DNA of 64,000 nucleotides from a candidate division CPR3 bacterium GWF2_35_18 (lineage in GTDB: Bacteria; Patescibacteriota; CPR3; GWF2-35-18). The stretch is from contig MESW01000003.1 in assembly GCA_001771135.1 (NCBI GenBank), positions 72,719-136,718 of the forward strand, in the 5' to 3' direction. Of the stretch, positions 5,903-23,758 are shown in pieces (the stretch's first letter is position 1; each line of letters starts with the position of its first letter). Position numbers and translations under genes: made by a program. The notes under the pieces are model-generated. The model did no database searches and was not told the origin of the DNA. It saw only the letters and a program-made list of their open reading frames with translations.

Positions 5903-5978
5903 TCCGGACTTGATCCGGAATCTATTATTTTAAATAATTATTACTGGATCCCGTATCAAGTATGGGATAACTTTAATG

Positions 5979-7238: not shown

Positions 7239-7270
7239 ATAGTACTAACTTTACATTTATTATTTAATAC

Positions 7271-8911: not shown

Positions 8912-8926
8912 AAAAGTATTTCCTTT

Positions 8927-10270
8927 TTAGATTTTCTCCAGAATTTTAAGTTCTTCTTCTATTTTCATAAGGCGATTATACTTAGAAACTCTTTCACCTT
9001 TACGGGGAGCTCCTGATTTGAAATATTCAGCTCCAACTGCCACAGAAAAATCTGCCAAAAAATCGTCATTTGTTTCACCAGAACGATGGGAAAAGACAAT
9101 TTTTAATTTTTGCTGTTGAGCAGTAATTACAACATTCAAAAGATCCAAAACTGAACCAATTTGATTGGGTTTTATAGAAATTGCGTTTGCCCAATGTTCT
9201 TTTCGATTTTGGTTAATTTTTTCCATATTACCATTAAAAAGATCATCTCCCACGACTCCTATAAAATTAGGAACTTTATGCTTGAATTCAACCCAATGTT
9301 TATAATCATCAGCAGAAAGAGGATCTTCGAAAAAGATAATAGGGAAATCTTTCGCAAATTTTAAAAGATATTCTACCATCTCTTCTGGTGTAAATTTCTT
9401 CTTTCCTTGAGAAACAGTATACAATCGATTTATATGGTCATAAATACCTGTAGCCGCAATATCTAAACCAAAATAGACTGAAGATTCCAGTCTAGTTTCC
9501 AGTTTGGAAATTGCTTGCATAATAATCTCTAAAGCCTTTGTATCACTATCAAGAGAAGGCATAAATCCACCTTCATTCGAAAGAGATGTATATTCATAAT
9601 CACTACCCATCAAGTCCTTTTGAATCTGATGATCAATTTCCGAAGCGTATCGTAATTTATCACAATAATTAGGAATACCTTTTAGTATTACCATAAAATC
9701 CTGAAAGTCTAATTTACTCTTTTGGGACTCACGACCATTTATCATATTAAAAATTGGCTCTGGAATAGCCATTTTTTTCATTGGTTCTATGTTTTGAACG
9801 GTTTCTAAATTGATAGTATCACCTTCAGATTTAAATAAATGATTATATTGCTTTTCATATAAATAATGCAGATATTCAAACAAAGATTGATTACGACTGG
9901 CAGCTCCAGCTTTAGCCACGGCCATAGACGTTGATAAGATGGTATTACTACCTAAATGAGCCTTATTCGGAGTCCCGTCTAGATCAGCAAGAAGCTCATC
10001 AATATCAAATTGATCTTGGGGATCTTTTTTATACAAACGTGGAGCAATGGTTTTGTTCACATTGGTAACCGCACGAGTCACTCCATAGCCATGATATCGA
10101 CTCATGTCTTTATCTCTAATTTCAACATTATCTTCAATACCGTAACTAGTCCCTGAAGCTGAAGAAGAATAAACCTTTACTCCATTCGACAAAGTTACTT
10201 CAACCTCAATTGTCGGTAAACCACGTGATTCTAAAATCTCTCGTCCTTTGACTTCTTGAATGTATAACAT
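8927..10270 (-). CDS. eno: Enolase (phosphopyruvate hydratase)
   Basis: Canonical start MLYIQEVKGREILESRGLPTIEVEV and a C-terminal enolase TIM barrel (SHRSGETND). The N-terminal Mg-site segment is divergent (SASGTSYGIED). Confidence 0.88.
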   Translation of the reverse strand: MLYIQEVKGREILESRGLPTIEVEVTLSNGVKVYSSSASGTSYGIEDNVEIRDKDMSRYHGYGVTRAVTNVNKTIAPRLYKKDPQDQFDIDELLADLDGTPNKAHLGSNTILSTSMAVAKAGAASRNQSLFEYLHYLYEKQYNHLFKSEGDTINLETVQNIEPMKKMAIPEPIFNMINGRESQKSKLDFQDFMVILKGIPNYCDKLRYASEIDHQIQKDLMGSDYEYTSLSNEGGFMPSLDSDTKALEIIMQAISKLETRLESSVYFGLDIAATGIYDHINRLYTVSQGKKKFTPEEMVEYLLKFAKDFPIIFFEDPLSADDYKHWVEFKHKVPNFIGVVGDDLFNGNMEKINQNRKEHWANAISIKPNQIGSVLDLLNVVITAQQQKLKIVFSHRSGETNDDFLADFSVAVGAEYFKSGAPRKGERVSKYNRLMKIEEELKILEKI

Positions 10271-10374
10271 ATAAAAAACCTCTAATTTATATTAATATTG
10301 TTTTCACTACCTTATTACTTTACAATATACTCAAACTTAATTCAAATATATTATTTATCTATGGAGAACTAGTT

Positions 10375-10752
10375 ATGTCAAAAGCAAGAAAAATATTAGT
10401 TATTGAAGACGATCAGTTTATCAGAGAGATGTATTGTCGCGAACTTCAAAAAGAAGGATATGAAACGGATTTTACTGATAATGCTGAAGATGGAACAAAA
10501 AAAATCAGGAAAAATAAATATGATCTTGTTTTAGTTGACATTATGCTTCCAGGTAAGAATGGATTAGATATGTTGAAAGATTTTAAAGAAAAAGATGGAA
10601 CTAAGGGTGCCAAATTTATTCTACTTACGAATATTGGACAGGATTCTGTTGTTAAACAAGGCCTTGATCTTGGAGCTAAAGGATATTTTATCAAATCTTC
10701 TCACACACCATCAGAAATAGTACAAGAAATCAATAATTTCTTTGAAGATTAA
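10375..10752 (+). CDS. Stand-alone response regulator receiver domain (CheY-like)
   Basis: KILVIEDD ... VLVDIMLPG ... K motifs of the REC domain. 125 aa with no output domain and no histidine kinase in the window. Confidence 0.8.
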   Translation: MSKARKILVIEDDQFIREMYCRELQKEGYETDFTDNAEDGTKKIRKNKYDLVLVDIMLPGKNGLDMLKDFKEKDGTKGAKFILLTNIGQDSVVKQGLDLGAKGYFIKSSHTPSEIVQEINNFFED

Positions 10753-10777
10753 ACTTTTTGAAAATTGATAGTAACAA

Positions 10778-10810
10778 AAATACCACGGCTAAAATCCGTG
10801 GTATTTTTTA
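10778..10810. terminator. Bidirectional rho-independent terminator between convergent genes
   Basis: Hairpin taccacgg-ctaaaat-ccgtggta flanked by an A-run on the 5' side and a T-run on the 3' side. Confidence 0.7.
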
Positions 10811-10830
10811 TATAGATCTAGATCTTAAGC

Positions 10831-13194
10831 TTATTTCAATCCCACTCTTTTTTTCTCTGCTTCGTAAACAACTTTTCTAGTTTTTTCAATCATATCTTGC
10901 TCTACAGAAACACTAGTTATTCCCCATTCAACGAGTTTTTCTGTTATTTCCGGATATACGGACGGAGCTTCTCCACAGATTGATGCCATAATTCCATGTT
11001 TGGCGGATTTTTTAACAGCTTGTTCGATCATCCACATTACGGCTGGATTTCTTTCATCAAATTCTTTGGCAACTTTTGCATTATCTCGATCCAGTCCCAA
11101 AGTTAACTGGGTGAGATCATTGGAACCTATAGAAATTCCGTCAATTCCAACCCCAATGAATTTTTCCAATATGATAACATTTGAAGGAATCTCTACCATT
11201 AAAATTAATTTGAAACTGGAAGTTCTATATAAACCAACTTCATTCATAATTTTCTTCGCTTCAATAAGCTCTTCAGGAGTTCGAACAAAGGGAATCATAA
11301 TCCAAAGATTCTTATGATAACGATGTACTCGTTTAATCGCTTCAAGTTCTAATTTAAAAACCTCAGGATCAGTGATATAACGATAACAACCTCGATAACC
11401 AATCATTGGATTATCTTCGTTATCAGGTTCGTATTTCTCTCCTCCTTTTAGATTTCGGTATTCATTTGTTTTAAAATCAGTAGCGCGATAAACAACGGGA
11501 CGAGGATCAAAAGCTTTAGCAAATCTCATAATTCCTTCGGTTAACTTGTCCACAAAATATTCTTGTTTTCCACTTCTAATCAAAGCTTTTGGATGAGTAC
11601 CTATATTTGCAATCATAAATTCTGCACGCAGTAGCCCAATACCATCAACCTTTCTCTCGGCCAATTTTTCAGCCATATCCGGTTCTCCAGAATTTACATA
11701 AACCTTAGTGGCGGTCCGAATTTCAGTATTAGTAACCGTTTCTTCCACTACCGTAAAATCTTTATCCATTAAAATTCCCTCATAAACCTTACCTTCAGTT
11801 CCATTAACAGTAACGCTTTCACCTGTTTTTAACATTTGAGTTGCTTGTTCAGTCCCAACGACACAAGGAACACCGAGTTCTCGAGAAACAATCGCTGCAT
11901 GACAAGTGCGACCACCACGATCAGTAACAATTCCTGCCGCACGTTTCATCGCCGGAACAAAATCTGGAGTAGTCATCTCGGTAACTAAAATATCCCCTTC
12001 TTTAATTTTATTTATATCTTTGGGGGAATGAATTACTTTAACAGAACCGCTACCAATTCCTGGACTTGCTCCGAGTCCTTCAAGCAATAACACTTTTTCA
12101 AGATTAAGAGTTTTTCGACCTTTTATTGGTTCTTGTGTAGTTTGCTTTTCAGTACTGCTTACAACATTTATTGCTGGATTTTCTTCTTTAATTTTTACAG
12201 TAGTTACTGGTCTTGTTTGAACAATATATAACTTTCCTTTTTCATATGCCCATTCACTATCCTGAGGCCAGTTATAATGTGATTCGATAGTTCTTACTAT
12301 TTTTGCAAGTTTAAGAATTTCGGCATCAGGAAGTTTTTGGGCTTTTTGATAAGCCGGAGAAATTGGAAGTTTGACATTAAATTCATCTGTTTCTTCACCT
12401 TTTACCTTTTTTATCTTTTGCTTTTTATCTCTTCTAATAAATTGCCAATCCTGTTTCACAATATGTTTACTAATAATTTGTAGATTTTCTTTATCAATGA
12501 GATATTGATCTGGAGTTAAAGATCCGGAAACAATTGCTTCTCCAAGTCCATAAACCGCTTCAATTACGATTTTAGTACGATCGTTGGTAATTGGATCCAA
12601 TGTAAAAGAAATTCCCGAGGTTTCTGATTGCACCATCTTTTGTACTGGAACCGCAATTCCGACTTTGAAATGATCGTAACCTTGTGAAACTCGATAGAAA
12701 ATTGCTCGTGCTTCAAATAAAGAAGCCCAACAACCGCTTACAGCAATGAGAACATCTTTATCACCCTTAATATTTAGAAAGGTTCTCTGTTGACCGGCAA
12801 AAGAAGCATCAGGAAGATCTTCGGCAGTGGCTGAGGAACGAACCGCCACATAGGGAGGAGTTCTTTCAATTTCTTTATAATATTTAATGATTAAATCGGA
12901 AATCTCCTGCGGAACTGGAGTTTTTTCAATCAAAGTTTTAATTTCCTCGGATACTGACTGAAGTTTTTTAGAATCATCAACGTTTAAGCCGGTTAGTTTT
13001 TGGCGGATTTTATCACGTAGATTGGTTTTATCTAAGAAATAAAAGTAAGCTTGAGCGGTCACTATAAATCCGTTGGGAACTGGAACACCAGCGTTTGTCA
13101 TTTCTCCCAAGTTTGCACCTTTTCCACCGACGATTCCGACATCACCTTTTCCGACTTCATTAAACCAGAGACAAAATTTGGGCAGTTTAGCCAT
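10831..13194 (-). CDS. ppsA: Phosphoenolpyruvate synthase (pyruvate, water dikinase)
   Basis: N-terminal ATP-grasp (GGKGANLGEM), a central phosphohistidine domain (GGRTCHAAIVSRELGVPCVVG) and a C-terminal PEP-utilising TIM barrel. 787 aa. Confidence 0.85.
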   Translation of the reverse strand: MAKLPKFCLWFNEVGKGDVGIVGGKGANLGEMTNAGVPVPNGFIVTAQAYFYFLDKTNLRDKIRQKLTGLNVDDSKKLQSVSEEIKTLIEKTPVPQEISDLIIKYYKEIERTPPYVAVRSSATAEDLPDASFAGQQRTFLNIKGDKDVLIAVSGCWASLFEARAIFYRVSQGYDHFKVGIAVPVQKMVQSETSGISFTLDPITNDRTKIVIEAVYGLGEAIVSGSLTPDQYLIDKENLQIISKHIVKQDWQFIRRDKKQKIKKVKGEETDEFNVKLPISPAYQKAQKLPDAEILKLAKIVRTIESHYNWPQDSEWAYEKGKLYIVQTRPVTTVKIKEENPAINVVSSTEKQTTQEPIKGRKTLNLEKVLLLEGLGASPGIGSGSVKVIHSPKDINKIKEGDILVTEMTTPDFVPAMKRAAGIVTDRGGRTCHAAIVSRELGVPCVVGTEQATQMLKTGESVTVNGTEGKVYEGILMDKDFTVVEETVTNTEIRTATKVYVNSGEPDMAEKLAERKVDGIGLLRAEFMIANIGTHPKALIRSGKQEYFVDKLTEGIMRFAKAFDPRPVVYRATDFKTNEYRNLKGGEKYEPDNEDNPMIGYRGCYRYITDPEVFKLELEAIKRVHRYHKNLWIMIPFVRTPEELIEAKKIMNEVGLYRTSSFKLILMVEIPSNVIILEKFIGVGIDGISIGSNDLTQLTLGLDRDNAKVAKEFDERNPAVMWMIEQAVKKSAKHGIMASICGEAPSVYPEITEKLVEWGITSVSVEQDMIEKTRKVVYEAEKKRVGLK

Positions 13195-13221
13195 AATCTA
13201 TTCCTTTCAATAATTAATAAG

Positions 13222-13247
13222 ATAATATGTTTTCATATTATCTTGAT
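13222..13247 (-). terminator. Weak hairpin downstream of the giant surface-protein gene
   Basis: 11-bp inverted repeat aagataatatg/catattatctt with a tttt loop. There is no clean T-run, so terminator function is uncertain. Confidence 0.25.
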
Positions 13248-13296
13248 TAAAAATAAATAACAAGCAGTTTAATACTATATGAAAAGTTATATTTAC

Positions 13297-16200
13297 TCAT
13301 CGACGTAATTTGGTAATAAATATTACCGTACTAATCAATCCAGTTAGTAAAAAAATAATTGTACCTCCTAAAAAACCAGTGTCTGGAAGTTGAAAGATAC
13401 TGCTCCGGACGAAGATACTAAAGTTAATGGTATCTTTATTACCAGCTTGATCAGTAGATATAATAGTGACTTCATGAAGTCCAAGAGGAATATTAATTTC
13501 AGGAGTATAACTCCAATTACCCGTATCATCAATTGTTGTATTTCCAATAATAGGTTCTGAATTGATGGTAATATTAACGATCGCTTCTTTTTCTCCTGTC
13601 CCTTCAAAAACTGGTTTACTGTTATTTAACTCCCACTGGGTTAAGTCTTTATTAAAGGTAACTCCTCCTAATTTAACTAAGTTGATAGTGGTTGTAGTAT
13701 CGAGAATGATACTGGCGCTGTAAATCAAAGATTCATTCCCCGCACCATCACGATATTTGATATAAATTGTCTTAATACCATCTCCTTCTGATAATGTCCA
13801 TACTTTTGTTTTAGAGTAAGACTCCCACTCTACTCCAATAAAATTAGGATTTTCAGAGATAATCATTTCCACAACTTCGGTTAAATCATCCGTTCCCGGA
13901 AGAATTAAGGTAATTGTTTTTTCGTTAGTATATTCGTTATTACTGGGACTCACAATTTCAATTGGTCCTTCAGGAGATTTAGTATCCAAAATAATAGTAT
14001 CACTATAGATAGTTGATTCATTACCGGCCACATCTTTGTACTTGGCATAAACTGTTTTTGTACCATTATTACTAGAGAGAGTAAACGTTTTAGAGGTGTC
14101 ATATGATTCCCAACTTGATCCAGTAAAAGATTCATTTTCAGAAAGAATCATCTGACTTATTCCGGAAGGATTATCGATAGCCGATAAAGTAAGAATAACT
14201 TCTCTACTATTAGTGTTTTCAGCTCCTTCATTGATAGTTATACTTCCTGTCGGTAAAGTATCGTCTACATTAAAATTTGTAGATTGATACAAGATTTCAG
14301 GTAAATACACTTCATTTTGATCAATGGAACGAACGGTTAATGTATGAGTTCCTTCACTTAAAGAACTCGGGGAAGTACAAGAATAATTTTCTGATATTTC
14401 ATCAAAGGCACCATCAGAAGCAGTACAATCAAACCATATACCCCCATCAATCTTTCCCTGGATATTTTTTAGAAAAACAGATTGACTATTTGATTCCGCA
14501 TACGTATTTTTTGTCCAAGAGACACCATCAGATGAAGTTGCGTAAGCCAATCTCCCATTTGTCCCATCATGCCCGGTATACCACATCTTATAGATTCCAT
14601 TTTCTTTTATTAAGCTTCCAAAGTAAACGCTTCCTTTATCAATTGAATATGTATTACTTTGAGATAAAACTGGATTATTATCAGATTTAGTCCAAATAGC
14701 TCCATCCGGAGAAGTCGTATAATGAATTTGATATCTTAATCCATCATATCCGGTATACCACATTTTATAGGTTTCATTATCTTTGATTACATAACCTGAA
14801 AAAGCATGAACATCATCTGTTTCTCCAGAAGATCCCAAGGGAATAACACAACCATCCCCAATAGTCCCACTACAGTTGTTCCCAGAATTTCGAGTCCAGG
14901 TTAAACCATCATTCGAAGTTGCATAACCAATTCTCACATTACTGCCATCATGCCCAGTATACCACATTTTATATATTGTCTCGTCCTTGATCACATAAGG
15001 ATAATAAGTATGAGCATCATCCCAGTTACCGTTAACTGCTTTTGTAAAAAGACATCCATCTCCTAATGTTCCCAAGCAATTATTCCCAGAATTTCTTGTC
15101 CAAGTTATACCATCTGTAGATGTTGCATAACCGATTCGCATCGTACTTCCATCATGTCCGCTATACCACATCTTATATGTTTCCCCCTCTTTTATGACAC
15201 TGATACCATAGAGATGAAGATCATCCCAATTACCATTTGCACTTAGGTCAAAAATGCAACCATCTCCAGTTGTACTACCACAATTATTCCCATCATATTT
15301 TGTCCAATTTATACCATCTGTAGATGTTGCGTAACCGATTCGCCAGTTAGTATTATTCGATCCGGAATACCACATCTTATAGGTTGTTCCATCTTTTATT
15401 ACTGAAGGAGCATATCCCGTATGGTAGTAATCCCAATCGTAAACAGTTCCATGTTCATAATCTGCTCTACCTAGATCTAATAAAGTAGTGGTTTTGTCAA
15501 TTACCTTATCTTGGATGGGATTATTTGCTTCTCCAGATAAAGAAACGGTAGCTGTATAATATGGAGAGATAGTGTCGAGAGAAATACTAGCTTCATCATT
15601 TCCAATCTCCCAGATATCTAATTTTCCCGTGCCTCCTCCATGTCCAAGGATAGCTAAGTCCTCATACTCATCATAATCAAAGTTACCGACAATCATAGCT
15701 CTACCATAAGATAAAGAGCGCGTTAAATAATGAGGAGCAGTTATAAAAAGATCTGCGTTTTCAATAGCTTCAACTTCTCCGGACATATTTATTAAATTAT
15801 TTCCATAGTAAATATATACTCCTCCTTTAAAATCTTTATTAGTATTAAAAGTATAATATCCGTAATAATAACCCCCAACAGCCAGATCTAAATTTCCATC
15901 GTTATTCCAGTCATTAACAACAACCGACACTCCAAACATATGATACGGAATATTAGAATACAAAATAATATCCGCGTCTTCAGGATGAAGAATAGTTTGA
16001 GATAAGTAATTCGATTTTCCTAAAAATATCATTACTCCTCCTCTATAAGATACTCCATATCCACTTAATCCTATGATGATATCTTGTAAATTATCATTAT
16101 CAATATCGGCAACAATAAAATTTTGATAGCCGCCTAAATACTGATATGATGTGCTTCCTTCAATAATTAAATCCGCTTCAGAAAAAAGTTTGTTAGCAGT

Positions 16201-18300
16201 AGTTAAAGGTCCCAAAAAGATTCCTACCGAGCCAATATAGTTTTGATCATAACGATAACTAGATATGATAAGATCATCAATATTATCACTGTTTATATCG
16301 GCACTGTAATGACCTTGACCAGTGTAATAATTGGCTGTATCGCCTTTAACAGTAAAATCTGCATCAGTCCCAGCGTTTAAGTTCAAATCCCAAGCATGTT
16401 CTCCACCAAAAAAAACATATGTTTTCCCAGCATCAGTCTTTCCATCATAATCATATTTATATGCTCCCAAGGCTAAATCCGGCCAATCATCATTATTAAA
16501 ATCACTAACGGCCATAAGATCTAATCCTCCAAAACGGGAACCAGCTTGTTCAGCATCAATTACAATAGCAGCATCACTATAACTATCAATAGTTTCAAAA
16601 AAATCAGCTCTTCCCCAAAATATGTATACTCTTCCAGTTAGACTGCTTGGAGAACCCACAGCATTTACAATCAAATCATCGTAATTATCTTGATTAAGAT
16701 CACTAATAAAAATGCTATATCCAAAACGATCGTTTACTTTCTCTCCTAGAATAAAACTAGTTCTTTCAGTAGGAATTTCTGAAGATGTGCCTTGGTAAAG
16801 ATGCACCTCTCCAGTACTTGAAATGGAATAGTCTTGCCCTACTGCAAGATCAATATACCCATCGTTATTAAGATCACCTTTTTGTAAGCTGTGACCTTGA
16901 CCTGCCCCAAAAGAAGCAGCTGGATCACCAATGATACTTTGCTGTAAAAAACCATCGCTGTTTTCAGGGTAGTAATAATCAATTCCATACCGACCTAGAT
17001 AAACATCATCGTTTAAAGAAGCCGTATTTTTAGTATCAACCACAATTGTGCCGCGATTATTAGTTGAGATATAAATTAAATGATTCGTGGTATCTAAAGT
17101 CCCAAATGTTCCATAATTACTACTAATTTCAATAGAGCTTGTAATACCATAGCTTCCTTGCAGTGTATCATCACTCGGATCAACTGTTCCTTGAGTATTA
17201 ATTACAGTCATAGAAGAAACTAGGTTGTAGTGAGTAATATAAAGTAAATTACCTTCAACATATACTGACTTTACTCCTCCTGCGCTTTGTAGGGCTGGAT
17301 TTGAAGATAACAATACACCAGTAGAACTATCGGTAGTATTCCAGACTCCCGTAGTCCGATAAGCAAAAGAGGTATTATCATTTAGATTAACAACCGATAA
17401 GACTCCATCAGATGAACTTCCTTGAGAAGGTAGATATAAAAGCTTATTACCACTATCAAGCCCGATCTTTTCAATATTATTATGAGCAAGATGAGGAGTT
17501 GTCGAAGTTGAATAATTCGTTACAACAGTATCATCAGCAGGAGTCTTGGTGCCTTGAGTATTAAAAACTCTCATCCCTCCTCCCCAAGTTCCGATATACA
17601 GATAATTGTTATCAGAGTCAAAATATACTTGAGCTTGATTATTATTATGAGGAATTGCTGGAGTTGAGGTTGTTGTATAAGTAATCAAAAGTGTATCATC
17701 AGAGATCGTTACTGTTCCTTGAGTATCAATTACTGAAACTCCTCCTCCATAAGTAGATATATATAATAATTTGTTTATCGTATCCAAATAACTAGCATAA
17801 ACATTGTTATTTCCGATTGCGACGGGAGTGGAAGTTGTAGAATAAGTAGCATTTATAGTGTCATCAGTTGCAACAACTGTCCCATTGTTATCGATCACAT
17901 CTAATCCTCCAGAGGTACCAATATATATTAAATTTCCTATTTTATCGATAAACTTTATTGAATTTGAGCTTAGAGCTGGAGTTGAAGTAGTATTATAATT
18001 AATTACTATTGAATCATCTTCTAAATTATTCGTATTGTGAGTATTTATCACGTAAACACCAACATCACCAGTACCAATGTAAACAAGATTATTGGTATTA
18101 TCAATATAAGTATAGTAGCTTGAATTTGAAGAGATATAAAAAGTATATGGAGTTGCCTGCGCTAAGCTATTTGTAAAATTATTAAAAAGATAGAACTTTT
18201 GAGTAAAAGAAATTGTAAAGATTATCAGAATTATGATTATTCTTTTAAATAAATATAAGATTTTAATTTTCAGAGGCATAAAATGTTCTCTAAACTTCAT
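13297..18300 (-). CDS. Giant LPXTG-anchored cell-surface protein (1667 aa). It carries an N-terminal signal/TM, Reg_prop-like propeller repeats, FG-GAP (integrin-alpha-like) repeats, five tandem GH43/GH130-like propeller blades (YKMWY...IGYATS.DG..WT), Ig-like domains, two Big_5-like domains and a C-terminal LPDTG sorting signal.
   Basis: The repeat motifs are read from the translation. The C-terminus QLPDTGFLGG, a hydrophobic stretch and KLRR form a sortase signal. Confidence 0.75.
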   Translation of the reverse strand: MKFREHFMPLKIKILYLFKRIIIILIIFTISFTQKFYLFNNFTNSLAQATPYTFYISSNSSYYTYIDNTNNLVYIGTGDVGVYVINTHNTNNLEDDSIVINYNTTSTPALSSNSIKFIDKIGNLIYIGTSGGLDVIDNNGTVVATDDTINATYSTTSTPVAIGNNNVYASYLDTINKLLYISTYGGGVSVIDTQGTVTISDDTLLITYTTTSTPAIPHNNNQAQVYFDSDNNYLYIGTWGGGMRVFNTQGTKTPADDTVVTNYSTSTTPHLAHNNIEKIGLDSGNKLLYLPSQGSSSDGVLSVVNLNDNTSFAYRTTGVWNTTDSSTGVLLSSNPALQSAGGVKSVYVEGNLLYITHYNLVSSMTVINTQGTVDPSDDTLQGSYGITSSIEISSNYGTFGTLDTTNHLIYISTNNRGTIVVDTKNTASLNDDVYLGRYGIDYYYPENSDGFLQQSIIGDPAASFGAGQGHSLQKGDLNNDGYIDLAVGQDYSISSTGEVHLYQGTSSEIPTERTSFILGEKVNDRFGYSIFISDLNQDNYDDLIVNAVGSPSSLTGRVYIFWGRADFFETIDSYSDAAIVIDAEQAGSRFGGLDLMAVSDFNNDDWPDLALGAYKYDYDGKTDAGKTYVFFGGEHAWDLNLNAGTDADFTVKGDTANYYTGQGHYSADINSDNIDDLIISSYRYDQNYIGSVGIFLGPLTTANKLFSEADLIIEGSTSYQYLGGYQNFIVADIDNDNLQDIIIGLSGYGVSYRGGVMIFLGKSNYLSQTILHPEDADIILYSNIPYHMFGVSVVVNDWNNDGNLDLAVGGYYYGYYTFNTNKDFKGGVYIYYGNNLINMSGEVEAIENADLFITAPHYLTRSLSYGRAMIVGNFDYDEYEDLAILGHGGGTGKLDIWEIGNDEASISLDTISPYYTATVSLSGEANNPIQDKVIDKTTTLLDLGRADYEHGTVYDWDYYHTGYAPSVIKDGTTYKMWYSGSNNTNWRIGYATSTDGINWTKYDGNNCGSTTGDGCIFDLSANGNWDDLHLYGISVIKEGETYKMWYSGHDGSTMRIGYATSTDGITWTRNSGNNCLGTLGDGCLFTKAVNGNWDDAHTYYPYVIKDETIYKMWYTGHDGSNVRIGYATSNDGLTWTRNSGNNCSGTIGDGCVIPLGSSGETDDVHAFSGYVIKDNETYKMWYTGYDGLRYQIHYTTSPDGAIWTKSDNNPVLSQSNTYSIDKGSVYFGSLIKENGIYKMWYTGHDGTNGRLAYATSSDGVSWTKNTYAESNSQSVFLKNIQGKIDGGIWFDCTASDGAFDEISENYSCTSPSSLSEGTHTLTVRSIDQNEVYLPEILYQSTNFNVDDTLPTGSITINEGAENTNSREVILTLSAIDNPSGISQMILSENESFTGSSWESYDTSKTFTLSSNNGTKTVYAKYKDVAGNESTIYSDTIILDTKSPEGPIEIVSPSNNEYTNEKTITLILPGTDDLTEVVEMIISENPNFIGVEWESYSKTKVWTLSEGDGIKTIYIKYRDGAGNESLIYSASIILDTTTTINLVKLGGVTFNKDLTQWELNNSKPVFEGTGEKEAIVNITINSEPIIGNTTIDDTGNWSYTPEINIPLGLHEVTIISTDQAGNKDTINFSIFVRSSIFQLPDTGFLGGTIIFLLTGLISTVIFITKLRR
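14450..15500 (-). repeat. Five tandem in-frame coding repeats (about 180-205 bp each) encoding near-identical propeller-blade units of the giant surface protein
   Basis: A recurrent DNA motif encoding YKMWY at about 14580, 14760, 14965, 15165 and 15370. The protein repeats are about 60-70% identical. Confidence 0.6.
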
Positions 18301-18426
18301 TCTTTAAAAAGTCAAAAGTCTTTTTTAGTTTCAGATTTTGTTAATATCAGATTGATTCGTTTTCAATGATATATAAAATCCTTCATCTTGTCGATATATA
18401 ATTATGATGTTAGGCTTCATTATAAA

Positions 18427-19014
18427 TTATTTTAATTGCACATCTGGTACTTTTTTATATTTAGGATTTTTTACTAAAACCGGTTTTCCTTCCTTTTCAA
18501 TAACATAGTAGGCAAATCCTTGCATCTTCTTCACTGCTTCGTAATCAGCATGTCCCGGCATCGAAGCTTCATTACCACCTTGAGAAACAGAATCTAAAAA
18601 CTCTACCGGAGAATTATCTGCAGTCACAAAATAGGTTTTACCTGTATTTACAAGAAGATGGGCGTATCCAGCCGGCATATAAATTTCATCACCAGCGTTG
18701 ACTTTAATAGCCTTAAAATCTTCAATCTCGTCATCAAGGGGTTGACCTTTCTTATCTAAAGCTCTTTTTTGAAGTAAAGCTATTCCTTCACCAAAAATAA
18801 TCCAATATGTTTCATCGAGATTCCCCACATGATAGTGCCCGTAGGTTTTGATATATTCATGATCAACTGTTCCTGTCTGCCATAGAGTAATATTTTTTCT
18901 TTCTTTACCACCCCGAATCATATAATAATGAATGTCCGGTCCTTTTGCTTCCGGATTCATCAAAACATCTTTCATTTTTTCATGAGTACGTGGTGCATAA
19001 TATTCTGGATCCAT
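18427..19014 (-). CDS. Cupin-type (archaeal-type) glucose-6-phosphate isomerase
   Basis: About 190 aa with cupin motifs TYGHYH...E.Y and PAGYAHLLVN matching the cPGI signature T.GH.H...E.Y / P....H...N. It sits within a glycolytic gene neighbourhood. Confidence 0.55.
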   Translation of the reverse strand: MDPEYYAPRTHEKMKDVLMNPEAKGPDIHYYMIRGGKERKNITLWQTGTVDHEYIKTYGHYHVGNLDETYWIIFGEGIALLQKRALDKKGQPLDDEIEDFKAIKVNAGDEIYMPAGYAHLLVNTGKTYFVTADNSPVEFLDSVSQGGNEASMPGHADYEAVKKMQGFAYYVIEKEGKPVLVKNPKYKKVPDVQLK

Positions 19015-19034
19015 AAAAAACTCCTTTTGTGTTT

Positions 19035-19841
19035 TTATAATTTCAATAAGCTAAGTAATTCGTTATGTATTTTACCGTTTGTCGCCAAAATTCCCTTTGA
19101 AGTGTCATTATTCTGAATCTGATCACCGTTTAAATCAGTCACAACTCCACCTGCCTCAGTCACAAAAAGAATACCGGCAATTACATCCCAGATCTTTTCT
19201 TTTCCATAAAGGTCTACAAAAGCATCGAAAGCCCCTCTAGCCGTGGCTCCCATTCCCAGCATCGAATCAGCGAGACATCGGACTCTGTAACTAGCCCAAT
19301 TTACTTTTTTGAATTGCTCCATTTTTCTTTCGTAATCGTTTTTCTCCAACTGACTATTGGGAAGTCCTACAAAAAGAAAAGATTTATAAATATCTTCGGT
19401 CTGAGAAACTGTATATCTATTTCCATTATAATAAAAACCACCTTTTTTAATGGCACTATAAAGCTGTTTTTCTACAGGACGATATGAAACTGCTAGAATT
19501 GATTTTCCTCTATATAATAAATTAATGGCCGTATTATAAATAGGAAGATCGCGAACATAGTACTTTGTTCCATCAAGTGGATCAAGGACCCATTGATAAT
19601 CAGAATCTTTGTCTATATGTCCTTTTTCTTCAGAGTAAATTGAGTGGTTTGGAAATTTTTTTTCAATTGCTTCTATGATAATTTTTTCTGCTCCCACATC
19701 AATATTGGTCAAAATATCCTGTCGATTTTTGTAATTAAGCACCGTAACCTTTTTTTGGTTATCAAGAAGGTATTCACCAACTTTCTGCGCCAGATTTTCA
19801 GTAAAACTGAGTGTTTTTTTCAGTTCCGAAGTCGTCATCAT
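19035..19841 (-). CDS. Inositol monophosphatase family phosphatase (IMPase/FBPase class IV-like)
   Basis: WVLDPLDGT motif and the C-terminal IMPase fold. 268 aa. Confidence 0.75.
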   Translation of the reverse strand: MMTTSELKKTLSFTENLAQKVGEYLLDNQKKVTVLNYKNRQDILTNIDVGAEKIIIEAIEKKFPNHSIYSEEKGHIDKDSDYQWVLDPLDGTKYYVRDLPIYNTAINLLYRGKSILAVSYRPVEKQLYSAIKKGGFYYNGNRYTVSQTEDIYKSFLFVGLPNSQLEKNDYERKMEQFKKVNWASYRVRCLADSMLGMGATARGAFDAFVDLYGKEKIWDVIAGILFVTEAGGVVTDLNGDQIQNNDTSKGILATNGKIHNELLSLLKL

Positions 19842-20365
19842 AAGTTTATAATTTCTCCTTGCAAATTATCAGTATCAAAAATTGCAATAGAAGAGTTTGA
19901 ACCATTAACCTTTTCTTCTGAGAATGTAATAAGGCTTCCCGGATTTATCCAAATAGTCTTTCCAACTTTTTTAAGATGAGAAACATGAGTATGTCCAGTA
20001 CAAAGAAGGTCATATTTTTGAGAATTTAACAAAGCTTCGGTAATTACTTTATCATGACCATGAAATACCGCTATTTTACAACTGTCACATTCTAAATCCC
20101 AGGTTAACCCATGCTTAGGATATTCAATATTAACACCATACTTTTCCGCTTTTCTTTTGATTCCAATTCTATCACCTTCATTATTCCCAAACACCGCTTT
20201 AATTGGAATATTCCAATTAATCTGCTTCAGTTTTAAAAAGTTAAATGAAGAAACTAGGTCACCACAAAAAATGACTATTTCGACCTTGTTTTCTTCAAAT
20301 ACTTTTTTAACTTCGATTAACTTTTCTACCTGATCATGAGAGTCAGAAAATATACCAATTTTCAT
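19838..20365 (-). CDS. Metallophosphoesterase (YfcE/MJ0936-like phosphodiesterase)
   Basis: Motifs GDLV, GNNEGD and GHTH. 175 aa. Confidence 0.7.
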   Translation of the reverse strand: MKIGIFSDSHDQVEKLIEVKKVFEENKVEIVIFCGDLVSSFNFLKLKQINWNIPIKAVFGNNEGDRIGIKRKAEKYGVNIEYPKHGLTWDLECDSCKIAVFHGHDKVITEALLNSQKYDLLCTGHTHVSHLKKVGKTIWINPGSLITFSEEKVNGSNSSIAIFDTDNLQGEIINL

Positions 20366-20373
20366 GTTTATTC

Positions 20374-21813
20374 CTAATCTAAAGCATCTTTATTAACACC
20401 AGAGCTGAAATCAACCTCTTTGTATTTCTTTAATATGGCTTTAATTTTTTTCTTAAGATCATTATACTTTTTCTGTGTTTTACCTTCGAATTTTACAGTT
20501 AGGTAAGGACCGTTTTGCGACGCTCTAATAATAACCATTTCATCTTTGGTATCTGCTCTAATTCCGTCAATATCAATGTACGAAGCCGTTTTTCCAAAGA
20601 GATTTTTGAATTCTTTGGTTATTTTAGTTTTGATAAAATCGAATTTAATTTCGTCGGCACAACCGAATTTGATCTCCGGAGAAGAGACGTATTTTGGCAT
20701 TTTTGCAACAGTTTCAGAAAGAGTTTGATTCGTGCGTGATAAATACTGTAATAAGCGTAAGGAGGCAAAAGCACCGTCATCATGACCATAAAAGTTATCG
20801 ACAAAAAACATATGACCGGATAGCTCTCCCCCAAAAGCGGCTTTTTCCTGTTTCAGTTTTGCCTTGATAAAAGAGTGTCCTGTCAACCACATCAGCGGAT
20901 TTCCCCCACTGCTTCTAATGACATCCGCAGTTTGTTTGGAACAAAGAGTGTTATAAACAATTGTTCCGCCAGGTTCATAATACAAAACATCTTGGGCAAA
21001 GATAGAAACGAGGTTATCATTCCAAATACTTTGACCTTTATCGTCAACTATTCCGACTCGATCACCGTCAGCATCATAGGTAAAACCCAAGTCAGCTTTT
21101 TCTTTTAAAACCCTTTTACTGAGTCGTTCCAAAACATCATTTTCAGTAGGATCTGGGGTTCCTAGAGGAAAATTACCATTCGGCTCACAATTTTGACGAA
21201 TTACAGAACAACCTGTATCTTCCAAAATTTGTGAAACAAATTCACCAGAATAAGTATTTGAGCCTTCGACAACTACTTTAAATTTTTTATCGATAGTAAC
21301 TCTTTTTAACAAATCGTTTTTGTAATCTTCGAAGATATCTTTTTTTACGAATTGCGCTTGACGATCATATTTTTTAAAGTTACCTTTTTCTACATAACTC
21401 CGCAGCTTTTTAATTTCCTCACTTTCCAGAGTGTCGGAAAAGCTACGTCCAAGCTTAAAGCCATTGTAATCTTTGGGGTTATGAGAAGCGGTAACCATAA
21501 TACAGGCTTTTGAAAGAAAGTGATATTGAGACCAATAAACAATCTGACTCAAACTTTTTCCGATTGAATAAACGTCAACTCCGTTTTTTAGTAATTCATC
21601 AATAACATACTTTTCAATCTCTTCACTACTATTTCTATTGTCACGTCCTACCACAACCTCTTTGATCTGTTTTTCAAAAAGCATAGTCACAAAACCCTTC
21701 ATAATAAGACGTACTGTTTTTTCATTCAGATCATCTGGAACAATACCGCGTAAATCATAGCCACGAAAAATATGAGGATTAACTTTGTTAATGTGAGGGT
21801 TAACTGTTTTCAT
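20374..21813 (-). CDS. Phosphoglucomutase/phosphomannomutase (alpha-D-phosphohexomutase family)
   Basis: Active-site TASHNP with a phosphoserine loop. Four-domain length of 479 aa. Confidence 0.8.
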   Translation of the reverse strand: MKTVNPHINKVNPHIFRGYDLRGIVPDDLNEKTVRLIMKGFVTMLFEKQIKEVVVGRDNRNSSEEIEKYVIDELLKNGVDVYSIGKSLSQIVYWSQYHFLSKACIMVTASHNPKDYNGFKLGRSFSDTLESEEIKKLRSYVEKGNFKKYDRQAQFVKKDIFEDYKNDLLKRVTIDKKFKVVVEGSNTYSGEFVSQILEDTGCSVIRQNCEPNGNFPLGTPDPTENDVLERLSKRVLKEKADLGFTYDADGDRVGIVDDKGQSIWNDNLVSIFAQDVLYYEPGGTIVYNTLCSKQTADVIRSSGGNPLMWLTGHSFIKAKLKQEKAAFGGELSGHMFFVDNFYGHDDGAFASLRLLQYLSRTNQTLSETVAKMPKYVSSPEIKFGCADEIKFDFIKTKITKEFKNLFGKTASYIDIDGIRADTKDEMVIIRASQNGPYLTVKFEGKTQKKYNDLKKKIKAILKKYKEVDFSSGVNKDALD

Positions 21814-21869
21814 AATATAAAAATAGAATCACTAGCTGAGTGTTTCTCCTATACTCCTATTATTAATAC

Positions 21870-22634
21870 TTAGGATTTTTTATTATCTAGAAATTTTGTA
21901 AAACTTTCAAAACCTCTTAGAACCTCCAATGGAACCGCAAAAACTATTGTATTGGATTGATCAGAAGAAATATCGTTTATAGAATTTAAAGTTCGCAGGT
22001 GTAAAGCGCCAGGAGTATTGGCCATTAAAGTAGCCGCCTTAGCCAAGTTTTCGGCGGCAATAACTTCTCCTTCAGAATTGATAATCGTCGCTCTTCGTTC
22101 TCGTTCAGCCTCAGCTTGTTTTGCCATAGTTCTCTTCATATTCTCGGGAAGCATTACGTCTTTTAGCGCCACGCTTTGTACGACAACACCCCACATCTCG
22201 GTTGTAGTATCAACAATTTGACGAATTTTCGCCGCCACATCATCACGTTTAGAAAGAAGCTCATCAAGAGTCACATCACCAATAACATCACGCATGGTGG
22301 TTTGTGCAAGCTGTGAAATCGCCCAACGGAAATTTTCAACTTCGAGAATCGCTTTTGAAGCATCATTAATTTTGTAATAAATAACTACCGAGATTCGAGT
22401 CGAAACATTATCTTTGGTGATTGCTTCCTGATCTGGTTCGGCGACCGCTTTGACACGCATATCAACAATCATAATCTTTTGAAAAACAGGGATTACAATT
22501 CTCCAACCCGGACCCAGTACATTAGAAAATTTTCCCATGGTAAATAGAACCGCTCTTTCATACTGATTGATCTGTTTCAGGGAAATAAGTATAAGGAAAA
22601 TTAAAGTAATGAATAAAGCTATGTAACCTGGCAT
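21870..22634 (-). CDS. SPFH/band-7 (stomatin/prohibitin-like) membrane protein
   Basis: N-terminal TM followed by an SPFH domain and a coiled-coil AKQAEAERERRA segment. Confidence 0.8.
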   Translation of the reverse strand: MPGYIALFITLIFLILISLKQINQYERAVLFTMGKFSNVLGPGWRIVIPVFQKIMIVDMRVKAVAEPDQEAITKDNVSTRISVVIYYKINDASKAILEVENFRWAISQLAQTTMRDVIGDVTLDELLSKRDDVAAKIRQIVDTTTEMWGVVVQSVALKDVMLPENMKRTMAKQAEAERERRATIINSEGEVIAAENLAKAATLMANTPGALHLRTLNSINDISSDQSNTIVFAVPLEVLRGFESFTKFLDNKKS

Positions 22635-22720
22635 AATATATCCTTTCTTAAAAATAATGTGTACTAATTATATACTCGAAATTATCTAAAACTCAAATTT
22701 TAGAATGCCTAGAAAAATTA

Positions 22721-22750
22721 TTGGAAAAAAGTCAAAAACTTGACTTTTTA
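22721..22750 (-). terminator. Putative hairpin terminator overlapping the trmD stop codon
   Basis: On the minus strand, aaaagtcaa/ttgactttt inverted repeat followed by a T-run. Confidence 0.35.
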
Positions 22751-23422
22751 AAGTAGGTCTTTTCTCTTTTTTTTAGTTACTTTTAACCGCTGTTCATTTT
22801 TCCATTTTTTTATTTCAGCATGGTTACCGGAGAGCAAAACCGAAGGAACTTTTAAACCACGAAATTCGGCCGGACGTGTATATTGAGGATATTCAAGAGA
22901 ATTATTAGAAAATGACTCATCTTCTGTGCCACCTTCTCCTTCTATAACTCCAGGAATTAACCTAACTATAGTATCAACAATAACTATCGCCGGAAGCTCT
23001 CCTCCAGTCAAAACATAGTCACCGATGGAAATCTCTTCATCGACTAAAGTATCAATAACTCTTTGGTCAACACCTTCATAGTGGCCGCAAAGAAGAATTA
23101 AATGTTGTTTTTTTGACAACTGCCTGGCTTTATTCTGTTTAAAGATTTTTCCTTGAGGAGAGAGATAAATAACATGTGAATCCGAATTTTTAGATTTTAA
23201 GTCTTCAATACATTCAAACAAGATTTCCGGTATCAAAAGCATCCCTGGCCCTCCCCCAAACGGTTTATCATCAACTGTTTGATGCCGATCAGTAGCCCAA
23301 TGACGTAAATTATTAATCTGAATATTAGTCAACCTTTTATCTTGAGCTCTTTTTATAATAGACTCCGAAAAAGGCCCCTCAAACATCTTGGGAAAAAGAG
23401 TAATAATATCTACTTTTAACAT
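22748..23422 (-). CDS. trmD: tRNA (guanine37-N1)-methyltransferase
   Basis: SPOUT knot motifs, including LLCGHYEGVDQRV and the C-terminal ...YTRP... segment. 224 aa. Confidence 0.9.
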   Translation of the reverse strand: MLKVDIITLFPKMFEGPFSESIIKRAQDKRLTNIQINNLRHWATDRHQTVDDKPFGGGPGMLLIPEILFECIEDLKSKNSDSHVIYLSPQGKIFKQNKARQLSKKQHLILLCGHYEGVDQRVIDTLVDEEISIGDYVLTGGELPAIVIVDTIVRLIPGVIEGEGGTEDESFSNNSLEYPQYTRPAEFRGLKVPSVLLSGNHAEIKKWKNEQRLKVTKKKRKDLL

Positions 23423-23427
23423 AGGAT

Positions 23428-23538
23428 TTATTGAATAAAAATAAATAACAGACTAAAAAAAAGTCCAGAAAGGCCAAATGCTAGAACTAGTAATAACCCG
23501 CATCCTGATTTGATATAATCTCTGACAAAATCTGACAT
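23428..23538 (-). CDS. Unannotated 36-aa hydrophobic peptide (MSDFVRDYIKSGCGLLLVLAFGLSGLFFSLLFIFIQ). Its stop lies 5 nt before the trmD ATG.
   Basis: SD GGAGA 8 nt upstream of the ATG. One predicted TM helix. It is below the ORF-track cutoff. Confidence 0.3.
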   Translation of the reverse strand: MSDFVRDYIKSGCGLLLVLAFGLSGLFFSLLFIFIQ

Positions 23539-23614
23539 ATTAAATCTCCAGCTATAATTATTTATCGGTATTCTACTACATTATAATCAATTCACACAAC
23601 TTTTATTGAAAATT

Positions 23615-23740: not shown

Positions 23741-23758
23741 TGAAATTATCTTCCGGTC

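What the first reader, a model, noticed from the sequence alone, without database searches (positions are those of the whole stretch)
13297..18300. 1667-aa sortase-anchored surface protein built from three different beta-propeller modules plus Ig/Big_5 domains
In N-to-C order it has: a signal/TM anchor; about 7 Reg_prop-like repeats (LLYIGT.GGG..VIDT.GT...DD); about 7 FG-GAP/integrin-alpha-like repeats (DLNNDGYIDLAVG, DFNNDDWPDLALG, DWNNDGNLDLAVG); five near-identical blades of about 65 aa with the YKMWY.G...RIGYATS.DG..WT signature typical of GH43/GH130-like five-bladed propellers; Ig-like domains; two Big_5-like domains ending in AGNES; and LPDTG plus a hydrophobic stretch plus KLRR. This architecture is consistent with an adhesin or glycan-binding and processing protein on the cell surface. 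That role would matter if this organism depends on attachment to a host or partner cell.
Basis: partly seen in the sequence, partly recalled or inferred. Interest (0 to 1): 0.7.

Follow-up and report, generated by a model that had tools for sequence, protein, structure and literature searches.

The report
Three-propeller LPXTG surface protein of CPR3
This is a real 1667-residue cell-surface protein of an ultrasmall groundwater bacterium (candidate division CPR3), carrying three different beta-propeller domains on an Ig-like stalk with a cell-wall sorting signal; it is most likely a sugar-binding adhesin, an unusual domain combination of an already recognised kind.

Summary
The ORF (13297..18300, minus strand, 1667 aa) is real and matches 100% a deposited hypothetical protein of candidate division CPR3 bacterium GWF2_35_18.
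- **Export signal:** an N-terminal signal sequence.
- **Module A:** a 7-bladed propeller, a divergent homologue of Reg_prop sensor propellers. Pfam's own model misses it, but profile and fold evidence support the link.
- **Module B:** a 7-bladed FG-GAP (integrin-alpha-like) propeller with seven Ca-loop motifs.
- **Stalk:** four Ig-like domains.
- **Anchor:** LPDTG, a hydrophobic stretch and KLRR.

Three corrections are needed. The blades are 38-68% identical, not near-identical. The "AGNES" domains are Big_13/OmpL47-like, not Big_5. Module C belongs to a large five-fold symmetric family in which the GH130 catalytic Asp is not conserved, so binding is more likely than glycan processing.

No sortase gene lies in the roughly 84 kb I could examine; the rest of the genome could not be checked. 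A second LPETG protein in the window passes TIGR01167, and sortases are reported in more than half of CPR genomes.

Verdict: an adhesin-like surface protein, a new member of a known kind, of modest interest.

The parts
18157..18300 (-). N-terminal export signal (aa 1-48): basic n-region, hydrophobic IIIILIIFTISF, possible cleavage after SLAQA. Alternative start at Met8 (18279).
   Evidence: Read from the sequence. NCBI calls Met8 as the start. P0003 has an equivalent ...NMTLAA|PPY at the same place. Cleavage is inferred, not tested.
16966..18156 (-). Module A (aa 49-445): seven-bladed beta-propeller built from about 54-aa repeats (LLYIxTxGGGVSVIDTQGTxxxxDDTxxxxYxTTSTP). A divergent relative of Reg_prop sensor propellers.
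   Evidence: AF2 pLDDT 89.9, pTM 0.89, 7x4 strands. Foldseek top hits are BT4663, BT3049 and BT4673. Pfam Reg_prop is sub-threshold here, but 8 of 18 relatives hit it. The profile reaches true Reg_prop sensors.
15601..16965 (-). Module B (aa 446-900): seven-bladed FG-GAP / integrin-alpha-like propeller with a Ca2+-loop motif D-x-[DN]-x-D-x-x-x-D in every blade.
   Evidence: Pfam FG-GAP 83.4 bits (cutoff 22.1), 6 stretches, and FG-GAP_3 48 bits. Integrin alpha chains in PDB at E 1.5e-9. Seven loop motifs.
15436..15600 (-). Linker (aa 901-955) between modules B and C. No family assigned.
   Evidence: No Pfam hit. 28-36% identity to P0002 and P0003.
14506..15435 (-). Module C (aa 956-1265): five-bladed beta-propeller of the GH130/GH43/GH137/GH117 fold, with pseudo-symmetric 59-68-aa blades. 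Blades 1-3 carry a conserved Cys-x7-Cys loop. The GH130 catalytic Asp is absent.
14266..14505 (-). First Ig-like domain (aa 1266-1345), with Cys1292/Cys1308.
   Evidence: Weak Big_13 match, E 0.031. 37-53% identity to P0002 and P0003. Assignment is tentative.
13696..14265 (-). Two tandem 'AGNES' beta-sandwich domains (aa 1346-1440 and 1441-1535), 48% identical to each other.
   Evidence: NCBIfam OmpL47-type NF047446 at 37.6 bits (cutoff 40). Pfam DUF7743 E 3.4e-4 and Big_13 E 0.003-0.016. No Big_5 hit. Shared with many giant Ig-repeat proteins.
13405..13695 (-). Big_13 bacterial Ig-like domain (aa 1536-1632).
   Evidence: Pfam Big_13 48.9 bits (cutoff 27), E 1e-12.
13297..13404 (-). C-terminal sorting signal (aa 1633-1667 plus stop): LPDTG (13375-13389), hydrophobic FLGGTIIFLLTGLISTVIFIT, and KLRR.
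   Evidence: Read from the sequence. PF00746 gives 13.7 bits, below the cutoff of 20, and there is no TIGR01167 hit. LPDTG is conserved in the 51%-identical relative P0002.

Best explanation
The gene encodes a Sec-exported surface protein of a CPR3 (Patescibacteria) bacterium, held at the cell envelope by its C-terminus. Anchoring is most likely by sortase cleavage at LPDT|G and linkage to peptidoglycan.

Four Ig-like beta-sandwich domains form a stalk that projects a three-propeller head. From the stalk outward the head consists of:
1. a pseudo-symmetric five-bladed propeller of glycoside-hydrolase ancestry that has lost the canonical GH130 acid;
2. a Ca2+-loop-bearing integrin-alpha-like FG-GAP propeller;
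3. at the distal tip, a Reg_prop-type propeller of the kind Bacteroides sensors use to recognise oligosaccharides.

The head most likely acts as a multivalent glycan or ligand-binding adhesin. It would attach the cell to a partner cell surface or to a polysaccharide matrix.

Shown: the ORF, the domain folds and homologies, the sorting motif, and the absence of the GH130 catalytic Asp. Inferred: signal-peptide cleavage, sortase processing, Ca2+ binding, disulfides, ligand class and biological role.
For: - **Architecture:**
- **Module A is homologous to glycan-sensor propellers:**
- **Module C favours binding over catalysis:** its family is five-fold symmetric with no blade-specific conserved acid, and the GH130 proton-donor position is unconserved (catalytic residue identity from PMC7660257 and PMC4264767). 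The same five-blade module sits at the N-terminus of an RHS/YD-shell protein, P0028, a context where such modules typically target rather than digest.
- **Adhesin-like topology:** the ligand-binding head is N-terminal, followed by an Ig stalk and a C-terminal LPXTG.
- **LPXTG sorting is used here:** LPDTG is conserved in P0002. A second protein in the window (BNR propeller + Big_13 x2 + LPETG) passes TIGR01167. A class A PBP lies nearby, so peptidoglycan is made.
- **The head is the conserved unit:** it is kept in P0003 at 35-45% identity while the anchor is swapped for a plain TM helix. The distal module A is the least conserved module.
- **Literature:** a sortase family is found in more than half of CPR genomes (PMC6744442). 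Most CPR carry multiple surface proteins with lectin, beta-propeller and sortase motifs (PMC5220378).
- **Native gene:** uniform GC (0.35), so no sign of recent transfer. The identical protein is found on 12 contigs from different samples.
Against: - No ligand, expression or localisation data exist.
- No sortase gene was found in the window or in 10 kb beyond each end.
- The sorting signal scores below the curated thresholds.
- The distance from the hydrophobic core to the putative AQA cleavage site is long, so the N-terminus could remain as a membrane anchor.
- Genomic neighbours are glycolysis and gluconeogenesis genes and give no functional hint.
Confidence: 0.6

Rival explanations
1. Surface-displayed carbohydrate-active enzyme. 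Module C is a working glycosidase or phosphorylase that uses non-canonical catalytic residues. Modules A and B act as substrate-targeting domains, so the protein harvests sugars at the cell surface for a glycolysis-dependent cell.
For: - Pfam GH130 is formally above its gathering score (44.7-52.2 bits against 26).
- The family profile hits GH130 and GH117 enzymes at E 1e-17 to 1e-20.
- Family members carry T9SS tails and cohesin or dockerin domains typical of secreted CAZymes.
- A conserved Asp in each blade faces the channel entrance.
- The gene sits among sugar-metabolism genes.
Against: - The GH130 proton-donor Asp position is unconserved in all five blades of 70 family members, and is A, G, Y, S or F here.
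- Conservation is strictly five-fold symmetric, unlike the asymmetric active sites of GH43, GH32 and GH130.
- NCBIfam equivalog scores are 33-41 bits against cutoffs of 450-550.
- The Pfam match is three or four partial stretches to one part of the model, not a full-length alignment.
- GH130 phosphorylases are reported as lacking signal peptides, i.e. intracellular (PMC7660257).
Confidence: 0.2
2. Same ectodomain, but not sortase-processed. The C-terminal hydrophobic segment plus KLRR simply acts as a membrane anchor, and the LPDTG is not used.
For: - No sortase in about 84 kb examined.
- The signal is below PF00746 and TIGR01167 thresholds.
- The homologue P0003 carries the same head on a plain TM anchor without LPXTG.
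- Sortase is only patchily detected outside Microgenomates (PMC6744442).
Against: - LPDTG is exactly conserved in P0002 at 51% overall identity.
- A second protein in the window with LPETG passes TIGR01167.
- The signal has the canonical three-part layout.
- More than half of CPR genomes have a sortase.
Confidence: 0.15
3. Structural or sensory envelope protein. The propellers would organise the envelope or S-layer, or sense extracellular glycans as Reg_prop domains do in hybrid two-component systems, rather than mediate attachment.
For: - Module A is homologous to sensor propellers.
- A stand-alone response regulator gene lies two genes downstream, separated by the pyruvate phosphate dikinase gene, on the opposite strand (10375..10752).
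Against: - No Y_Y_Y domain, transmembrane signalling segment, kinase or other output domain, all of which accompany Reg_prop in the true sensors.
- No SLH or other S-layer domain.
- The only cytoplasmic portion would be KLRR.
Confidence: 0.05

Closest known systems
Periplasmic Reg_prop propellers of Bacteroides hybrid two-component sensors (BT4663, BT3049, BT4673; Pfam PF07494)
   Same: Seven-bladed propeller. These are the best Foldseek PDB matches (E 2e-9, 16% identity). The module A profile retrieves genuine Reg_prop+Y_Y_Y sensors.
   Different: There is one propeller rather than two, no Y_Y_Y domain and no kinase or output domain. Pfam Reg_prop is below threshold here (13.4 against 20.4 bits). 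It forms a distinct 54-aa repeat subfamily found in large Patescibacteria surface proteins, with 117 cluster representatives at E<=1e-30.
Integrin alpha-subunit beta-propeller / bacterial FG-GAP (PF01839, PF13517) proteins
   Same: Seven FG-GAP blades with Dx[DN]xDxxxD Ca2+-loop motifs. Integrin alpha-V, alpha-4 and alpha-IIb match at E of about 1e-9.
   Different: All seven blades carry the loop motif, whereas to my knowledge integrins have it in three or four. There is no beta-subunit partner and no thigh or calf domains. It is embedded between two other propellers.
GH130 mannoside phosphorylases and hydrolases (e.g. Teth514_1788/1789, BT3780) and the related five-bladed families GH137 (BT_0996), GH43 and GH117
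   Different: The proton-donor Asp of the EDPR motif is not conserved. The blades are five-fold pseudo-symmetric. It is extracellular and fused into an adhesin-like protein. It belongs to a large uncharacterised family labelled 'predicted GH43/DUF377' or Glyco_hydro_43_rel.
LPXTG sortase-anchored surface proteins of monoderm bacteria, and CPR surface proteins with beta-propeller and sortase motifs (Castelle et al. 2017, PMC5220378)
   Same: N-terminal signal, distal binding region, Ig-like stalk, and LPXTG followed by a hydrophobic stretch and a basic tail.
   Different: The binding region consists of three unrelated propellers rather than the Ig-type domains typical of MSCRAMM adhesins (my knowledge). 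The sorting signal is sub-threshold on curated models. The cognate sortase has not been located.

Membership tests
Sortase substrate (LPXTG cell-wall anchor; PF00746 / TIGR01167) | C-terminal LPXTG pentapeptide, then a hydrophobic segment and a positively charged tail | tested here: met
   LPDTG at aa 1638-1642, 21 hydrophobic residues, KLRR. The motif is conserved in P0002.
Sortase substrate (LPXTG cell-wall anchor; PF00746 / TIGR01167) | Score above the curated HMM cutoff | tested here: not met
   PF00746 gives 13.7 bits against 20, and TIGR01167 gives no hit. The neighbouring LPETG protein passes TIGR01167 (20.2 against 15.9).
Sortase substrate (LPXTG cell-wall anchor; PF00746 / TIGR01167) | N-terminal Sec signal | tested here: inconclusive
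   A basic n-region and a hydrophobic core are present by inspection, but the c-region before AQA is long. No predictor was available.
Sortase substrate (LPXTG cell-wall anchor; PF00746 / TIGR01167) | A sortase (PF04203) encoded in the same genome | not testable with these tools
   None in the 64-kb window or 10 kb beyond each end. Sortases occur in more than half of CPR genomes.
FG-GAP / integrin-alpha-like propeller (PF01839) | Pfam score above gathering threshold, with repeats | tested here: met
   83.4 bits against 22.1, 6 stretches. Integrin alpha PDB hits.
FG-GAP / integrin-alpha-like propeller (PF01839) | Seven blades with Ca2+-binding Dx[DN]xDxxxD loops | tested here: met
   Seven motifs at 58-76-aa spacing. 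Actual Ca2+ binding was not tested.
Reg_prop two-component regulator propeller (PF07494) | Pfam score above gathering threshold | tested here: not met
   13.4 bits against 20.4, one stretch.
Reg_prop two-component regulator propeller (PF07494) | Homology detectable by profile, and a seven-bladed fold most like HTCS sensor domains | tested here: met
   The profile reaches seven of seven tested Reg_prop+Y_Y_Y proteins (library-wide E about 1e-19 to 1e-24). Foldseek top hits are BT4663, BT3049 and BT4673.
Reg_prop two-component regulator propeller (PF07494) | Accompanying Y_Y_Y domain and a cytoplasmic signalling output | tested here: not met
   No Y_Y_Y, HisKA, HATPase or GGDEF domain in the protein.
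GH130 (PF04041) | Five-bladed beta-propeller fold | tested here: met
GH130 (PF04041) | Full-length match to the family model or an equivalog | tested here: not met
   Pfam is above its cutoff, but only as 3-4 partial stretches to profile positions of about 104-206 of 320. NCBIfam equivalogs score 33-41 bits against 450-550.
GH130 (PF04041) | Catalytic proton-donor Asp (EDPR; D104 UhgbMP / Asp131 BfMGP / Asp92 Teth514_1788) | tested here: not met
   It aligns to the column before the conserved Pro of each blade. That column is variable in the family (top residue at most 21%) and is A964, G1032, Y1100, S1168 and F1227 here.
GH130 (PF04041) | Phosphate-binding Arg/His pair (phosphorylases) or a second carboxylate base (hydrolases) | not tested
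   The blade-register ambiguity of the repeat alignment prevents reliable mapping.
GH43 (PF04616) | Pfam match and the Asp/Asp/Glu catalytic triad | tested here: not met
   No PF04616 hit at E<=1. There is only a faint precomputed PF22847 Glyco_hydro_43_rel hit. No blade-specific conserved acids.
Big_5 (PF13205) | Pfam match in the AGNES domains | tested here: not met
   No hit at E<=10. Instead there are weak Big_13, DUF7743 and OmpL47-type matches.
Big_13 (PF19077) | Pfam score above gathering threshold | tested here: met
   aa 1536-1632 score 48.9 bits against 27. The other three Ig-like domains are sub-threshold.

The most novel reading that the evidence does not exclude
The five-fold symmetric, GH130/GH43-derived propeller family (thousands of secreted proteins, currently auto-annotated as 'predicted GH43/DUF377 glycosyl hydrolase') may be a non-catalytic, multivalent lectin family. 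In CPR3 it has been fused with an integrin-like propeller and a sensor-type propeller into a three-propeller host-recognition head, which would determine which partner cell this ultrasmall bacterium attaches to.
Probability: 0.25. Interest if true: 0.55.

Novelty: new member of a known kind. Interest (0 to 1): 0.3.

Why it matters
How cultivated Patescibacteria, which live attached to host cells, recognise and bind those hosts is largely unknown beyond type IV pili. Large surface proteins with propeller and lectin-like domains are the obvious candidates. This protein is a well-defined, confidently foldable example with three separable putative binding modules, so it could be expressed and tested for ligands.

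Two by-products are useful for annotation:
- **Module A:** a Patescibacteria-enriched Reg_prop-like repeat that current Pfam models miss.
- **Module C:** evidence that a very large 'GH43/DUF377-like' family lacks the GH130 catalytic Asp and may be mis-annotated as hydrolases.

None of this overturns current views. CPR surface proteins with propellers and sortase motifs have been noted since at least 2017.

Tried and rejected
- **Sortase search:** a TLxTC-type motif scan of all ORFs in the window and in the fetched flanks found nothing. Precomputed Pfam on all called genes from -10 kb to +10 kb around the window also found nothing. I found no way to read the remaining roughly 420 kb of the contig.
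- **Reference genomes:** The search for related loci in GTDB representative genomes with the whole protein returned only two unrelated Planctomycetota FG-GAP loci. No orthologues or synteny could be studied there.
- **P0003 context:** its contig is 10.9 kb, not syntenic, and has no sortase.
- **Stalk against PDB:** a sequence search with aa 1268-1637 gave nothing significant.
- **AFDB:** the afdb50 fold library was not available.
- **Big_5, GH43 (PF04616) and Reg_prop as strict Pfam memberships:** rejected on score.
- **S-layer protein:** rejected, since there is no SLH or S-layer domain.
- **Recent horizontal acquisition:** not supported. GC is 0.35-0.36, the same as the surrounding sequence.
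- **Opposite-strand ORF 14340..14690 (116 aa):** lies wholly inside the gene, is low-complexity, and is regarded as spurious.
- **Expression signals:** the promoter scan was no better than shuffles (34 against 27.4 +/- 4.9) and no terminator was found. A TCGACA-17-TATCAT site at 18394-18366 in the upstream intergenic region is only a candidate.
Full report
**Observation.** The window holds an ATG-to-stop ORF of 1667 aa at 13297..18300 on the minus strand. It is 100% identical to 'hypothetical protein A2X44_00475' of candidate division CPR3 bacterium GWF2_35_18. NCBI starts that protein at Met8 to give 1660 aa, and its longest contig is 500,978 bp. The identical protein was recovered on 12 contigs from different samples. 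GC content across the gene (0.35-0.36) equals that of the window. The repeats are also visible at DNA level: TRF reports a 204-nt period x2.5 copies at 74% identity at 14848-15347.

**Anatomy, N to C.**

- **aa 1-48, export signal.** A basic n-region and the hydrophobic core IIIILIIFTISF are followed by SLAQA|TP. Cleavage is inferred only.

- **aa 49-445, module A.** This consists of seven repeats of about 54 aa that are 21-55% identical to each other.
  - Pfam gives only a sub-threshold Reg_prop hit (13.4 against 20.4 bits).
  - The AF2 model built on 18 homologous segments is confident (pLDDT 89.9, pTM 0.89) and shows seven four-stranded blades.
  - Its best Foldseek matches in PDB are the periplasmic propellers of the Bacteroides hybrid two-component sensors BT4663, BT3049 and BT4673 (E 2e-9 to 5e-8, 15-17% identity), ahead of generic WD40 and YncE propellers.
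  - Among 18 relatives, 8 hit Reg_prop and 6 hit LVIVD weakly.
  - A profile search of 1.84 billion representatives found 117 proteins at E<=1e-30, 579 at E<=1e-10 and 3470 at E<=1e-3. All seven hits I checked from the weakest entries of the 150-hit listing (E about 1e-19 to 1e-24) were genuine Reg_prop + Y_Y_Y + kinase, GGDEF or SpoIIE sensors.
  - Module A is therefore a divergent homologue of Reg_prop, used here without any signalling output.

- **aa 446-900, module B.** FG-GAP scores 83.4 bits in 6 stretches and FG-GAP_3 scores 48 bits. Integrin alpha chains in PDB match at about 1e-9. Seven Dx[DN]xDxxxD loop motifs are present, one per blade.

- **aa 956-1265, module C.** This has five blades anchored on YKMWY, spaced 68, 68, 68 and 59 aa apart and 38-68% identical.
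  - AF2 gives pLDDT 91 and pTM 0.91.

- **aa 1266-1632, stalk.** There are four Ig-like domains. Only the last passes Big_13 (48.9 bits). The two 'AGNES' domains are 48% identical to each other and give weak Big_13, DUF7743 and OmpL47-type matches, with no Big_5 hit.

- **aa 1633-1667, sorting signal.** LPDTG is followed by a hydrophobic segment and KLRR.

- **Cysteines.** The protein has eight, all in short-range pairs: 1007/1015, 1075/1083, 1143/1151 and 1292/1308. The three blade pairs are conserved in both relatives that share the architecture. This fits an oxidised extracellular protein. CPR genomes are enriched in MdbA-like oxidoreductases (PMC6744442).

**Is module C an enzyme?** It belongs to a very large family: 5525 hits at E<=1e-3 among the 8000 candidates scored. 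Most are stand-alone secreted proteins of 330-450 aa from Lentisphaerae, Ignavibacteria, Calditrichaeota and Chloroflexi. Many carry T9SS tails or cohesin and dockerin domains, and they are auto-annotated as 'predicted GH43/DUF377 family glycosyl hydrolase'.

The family consensus is the same motif five times: NPVLxxGxxGxWDxxxVxxPxVIxDGxxYKMWYxGxDGxxxRIGYATSxDGxxWTKY. A profile of 70 members hits GH130 and GH117 structures at E 1e-17 to 3e-20, so homology to these enzymes is real.

In those alignments the 'EDPR' Asp of GH130 falls on the column just before the conserved Pro of the blade motif. That Asp is the catalytic proton donor: D104 in UhgbMP, Asp131 in BfMGP, and Asp92 and Asp98 in Teth514_1788 and Teth514_1789 (PMC7660257 and PMC4264767). 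The corresponding column is variable in all five blades, with the top residue at 21% or less. In this protein it is A964, G1032, Y1100, S1168 and F1227.

No blade-specific conserved acid exists, and every conserved column recurs in each blade. This symmetric pattern is what a structural repeat or a multivalent binding module would show. It is not what the asymmetric active sites of GH43, GH32 and GH130 show. I therefore read module C as GH-derived but probably non-catalytic. This remains an inference. A conserved Asp ('WD', 78-95% conserved) at the mouth of the channel in each blade could still serve catalysis or metal or sugar binding.

**Relatives and context.** Only two other proteins among 5.8 billion clusters share the multi-module architecture.
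- **P0002** (51% identity) has modules B and C plus the stalk, and also ends in LPDTG.
- **P0003** (38% identity) has all three propellers but a different C-terminus, with a plain TM anchor and an acidic linker.

The three-propeller head is thus the conserved unit and the anchor is interchangeable. Module A, the distal tip, is the least conserved module (35% against 43-45%). The same five-blade module also heads an RHS/YD-shell protein, P0028.

The neighbouring genes are all housekeeping sugar metabolism: FBP aldolase, FBPase, iPGM, enolase and PPDK on one side, and cupin-type GPI, IMPase and PGM on the other. They are co-directional, as is almost the whole window, and give no functional clue.

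A second putative sortase substrate lies at 39312..41969. It has a BNR/sialidase-like propeller, Big_13 x2 and LPETG, and its signal passes TIGR01167.

**Sortase.** No sortase was found in the window or in 10 kb beyond either end, either by motif scan or by precomputed Pfam. The remainder of the genome could not be read with these tools. Indirect support for sortase anchoring comes from three points:
- conservation of LPDTG in P0002;
- the model-validated LPETG neighbour;
- a class A PBP about 7 kb beyond the window start.

The literature adds that a sortase family occurs in more than half of CPR genomes, near-ubiquitous in Microgenomates and patchy elsewhere (PMC6744442). The target's own signal is sub-threshold on PF00746 and absent on TIGR01167, so sortase processing is likely but not shown.

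**Interpretation.** The topology is that of a monoderm adhesin: a distal binding head, an Ig stalk and a C-terminal wall anchor. All three head modules come from families whose characterised members bind carbohydrates or extracellular ligands. The best-supported function is a Ca2+-dependent, multivalent glycan or ligand-binding adhesin (confidence about 0.6). The rivals are:
- a surface-displayed CAZyme (0.2);
- the same ectodomain held by a TM anchor without sortase (0.15);
- a structural or sensory role (0.05).

**Novelty and score.** Castelle et al. 2017 already state that most CPR bacteria carry multiple surface proteins with lectin, beta-propeller and sortase motifs, so the kind is known. 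This particular three-propeller combination is rare, with two or three examples found, and is uncharacterised. Two of its modules belong to families that current models annotate poorly. I rate it a new member of a known kind, interest 0.3.

Noticed in passing
window 39312..41969 (-): Second LPXTG-type surface protein (885 aa): a BNR_2/sialidase-like propeller, two Big_13 domains, and LPETG followed by a hydrophobic stretch and a basic tail. Its signal passes TIGR01167 (20.2 against 15.9 bits). It lies directly downstream of the F1Fo ATP synthase operon.
   Followed up: partly
window 16966..18156 (-) and proteins P0004-P0026, P0153-P0260: The 54-aa repeat of module A (LLYVSTxGGGLSVIDTxGTxxPxDDTLVxTYxTxSTPAI) defines a propeller subfamily found in large, mostly Patescibacteria, surface proteins. 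Several arrays often occur per protein. In this protein no Pfam model reaches its threshold on it. There are 117 cluster representatives at E<=1e-30 and 579 at E<=1e-10.
   Followed up: yes
window 14506..15435 (-) and proteins P0033-P0152: A very large family of five-fold symmetric propellers related to GH130 and GH43 is auto-annotated as 'predicted GH43/DUF377 glycosyl hydrolase', yet the column corresponding to the GH130 catalytic Asp is unconserved in every blade. This may be systematic mis-annotation of a binding module.
   Followed up: partly
P0028 (1910 aa, N-terminally truncated on its contig): The same five-blade module sits at the N-terminus of an RHS-repeat / YD-shell protein, which suggests it is used as a targeting domain of a polymorphic-toxin-like protein.
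   Followed up: no
window 18427..19014, 23759..24964, 2525..4612 (all -): Several enzyme types I recognise as mostly archaeal (my knowledge, not tested here) are present: a cupin-type glucose-6-phosphate isomerase (PF06560), an AdoMet synthase of the PF01941 type, and an ADP-forming acetyl-CoA-synthetase-like protein (CoA_binding + Succ_CoA_lig + ATP-grasp_5).
   Followed up: no
window 1..64000: Nearly all genes are on the minus strand and GC skew is negative in every 2-kb bin (cumulative -3.8). The whole window therefore appears to lie on one replichore with strong gene-strand bias.
   Followed up: no
L001 (GCA_000991025.1, LBQV01000012.1): In this assembly of the same organism the contig ends about 1.4 kb into the 3' end of the giant gene, probably because its internal repeats broke the assembly.
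   Followed up: no
window 191..832 and 844..2451 (-), and L001 11626..13968: A run of four or five consecutive genes (535, 211-213, 351 and 134 aa) has no Pfam hit on record.
   Followed up: no
window 14340..14690 (+): A 116-aa ORF lies antisense within the giant gene. It is low-complexity (His, Tyr and Gln rich) and is most likely spurious.
   Followed up: no
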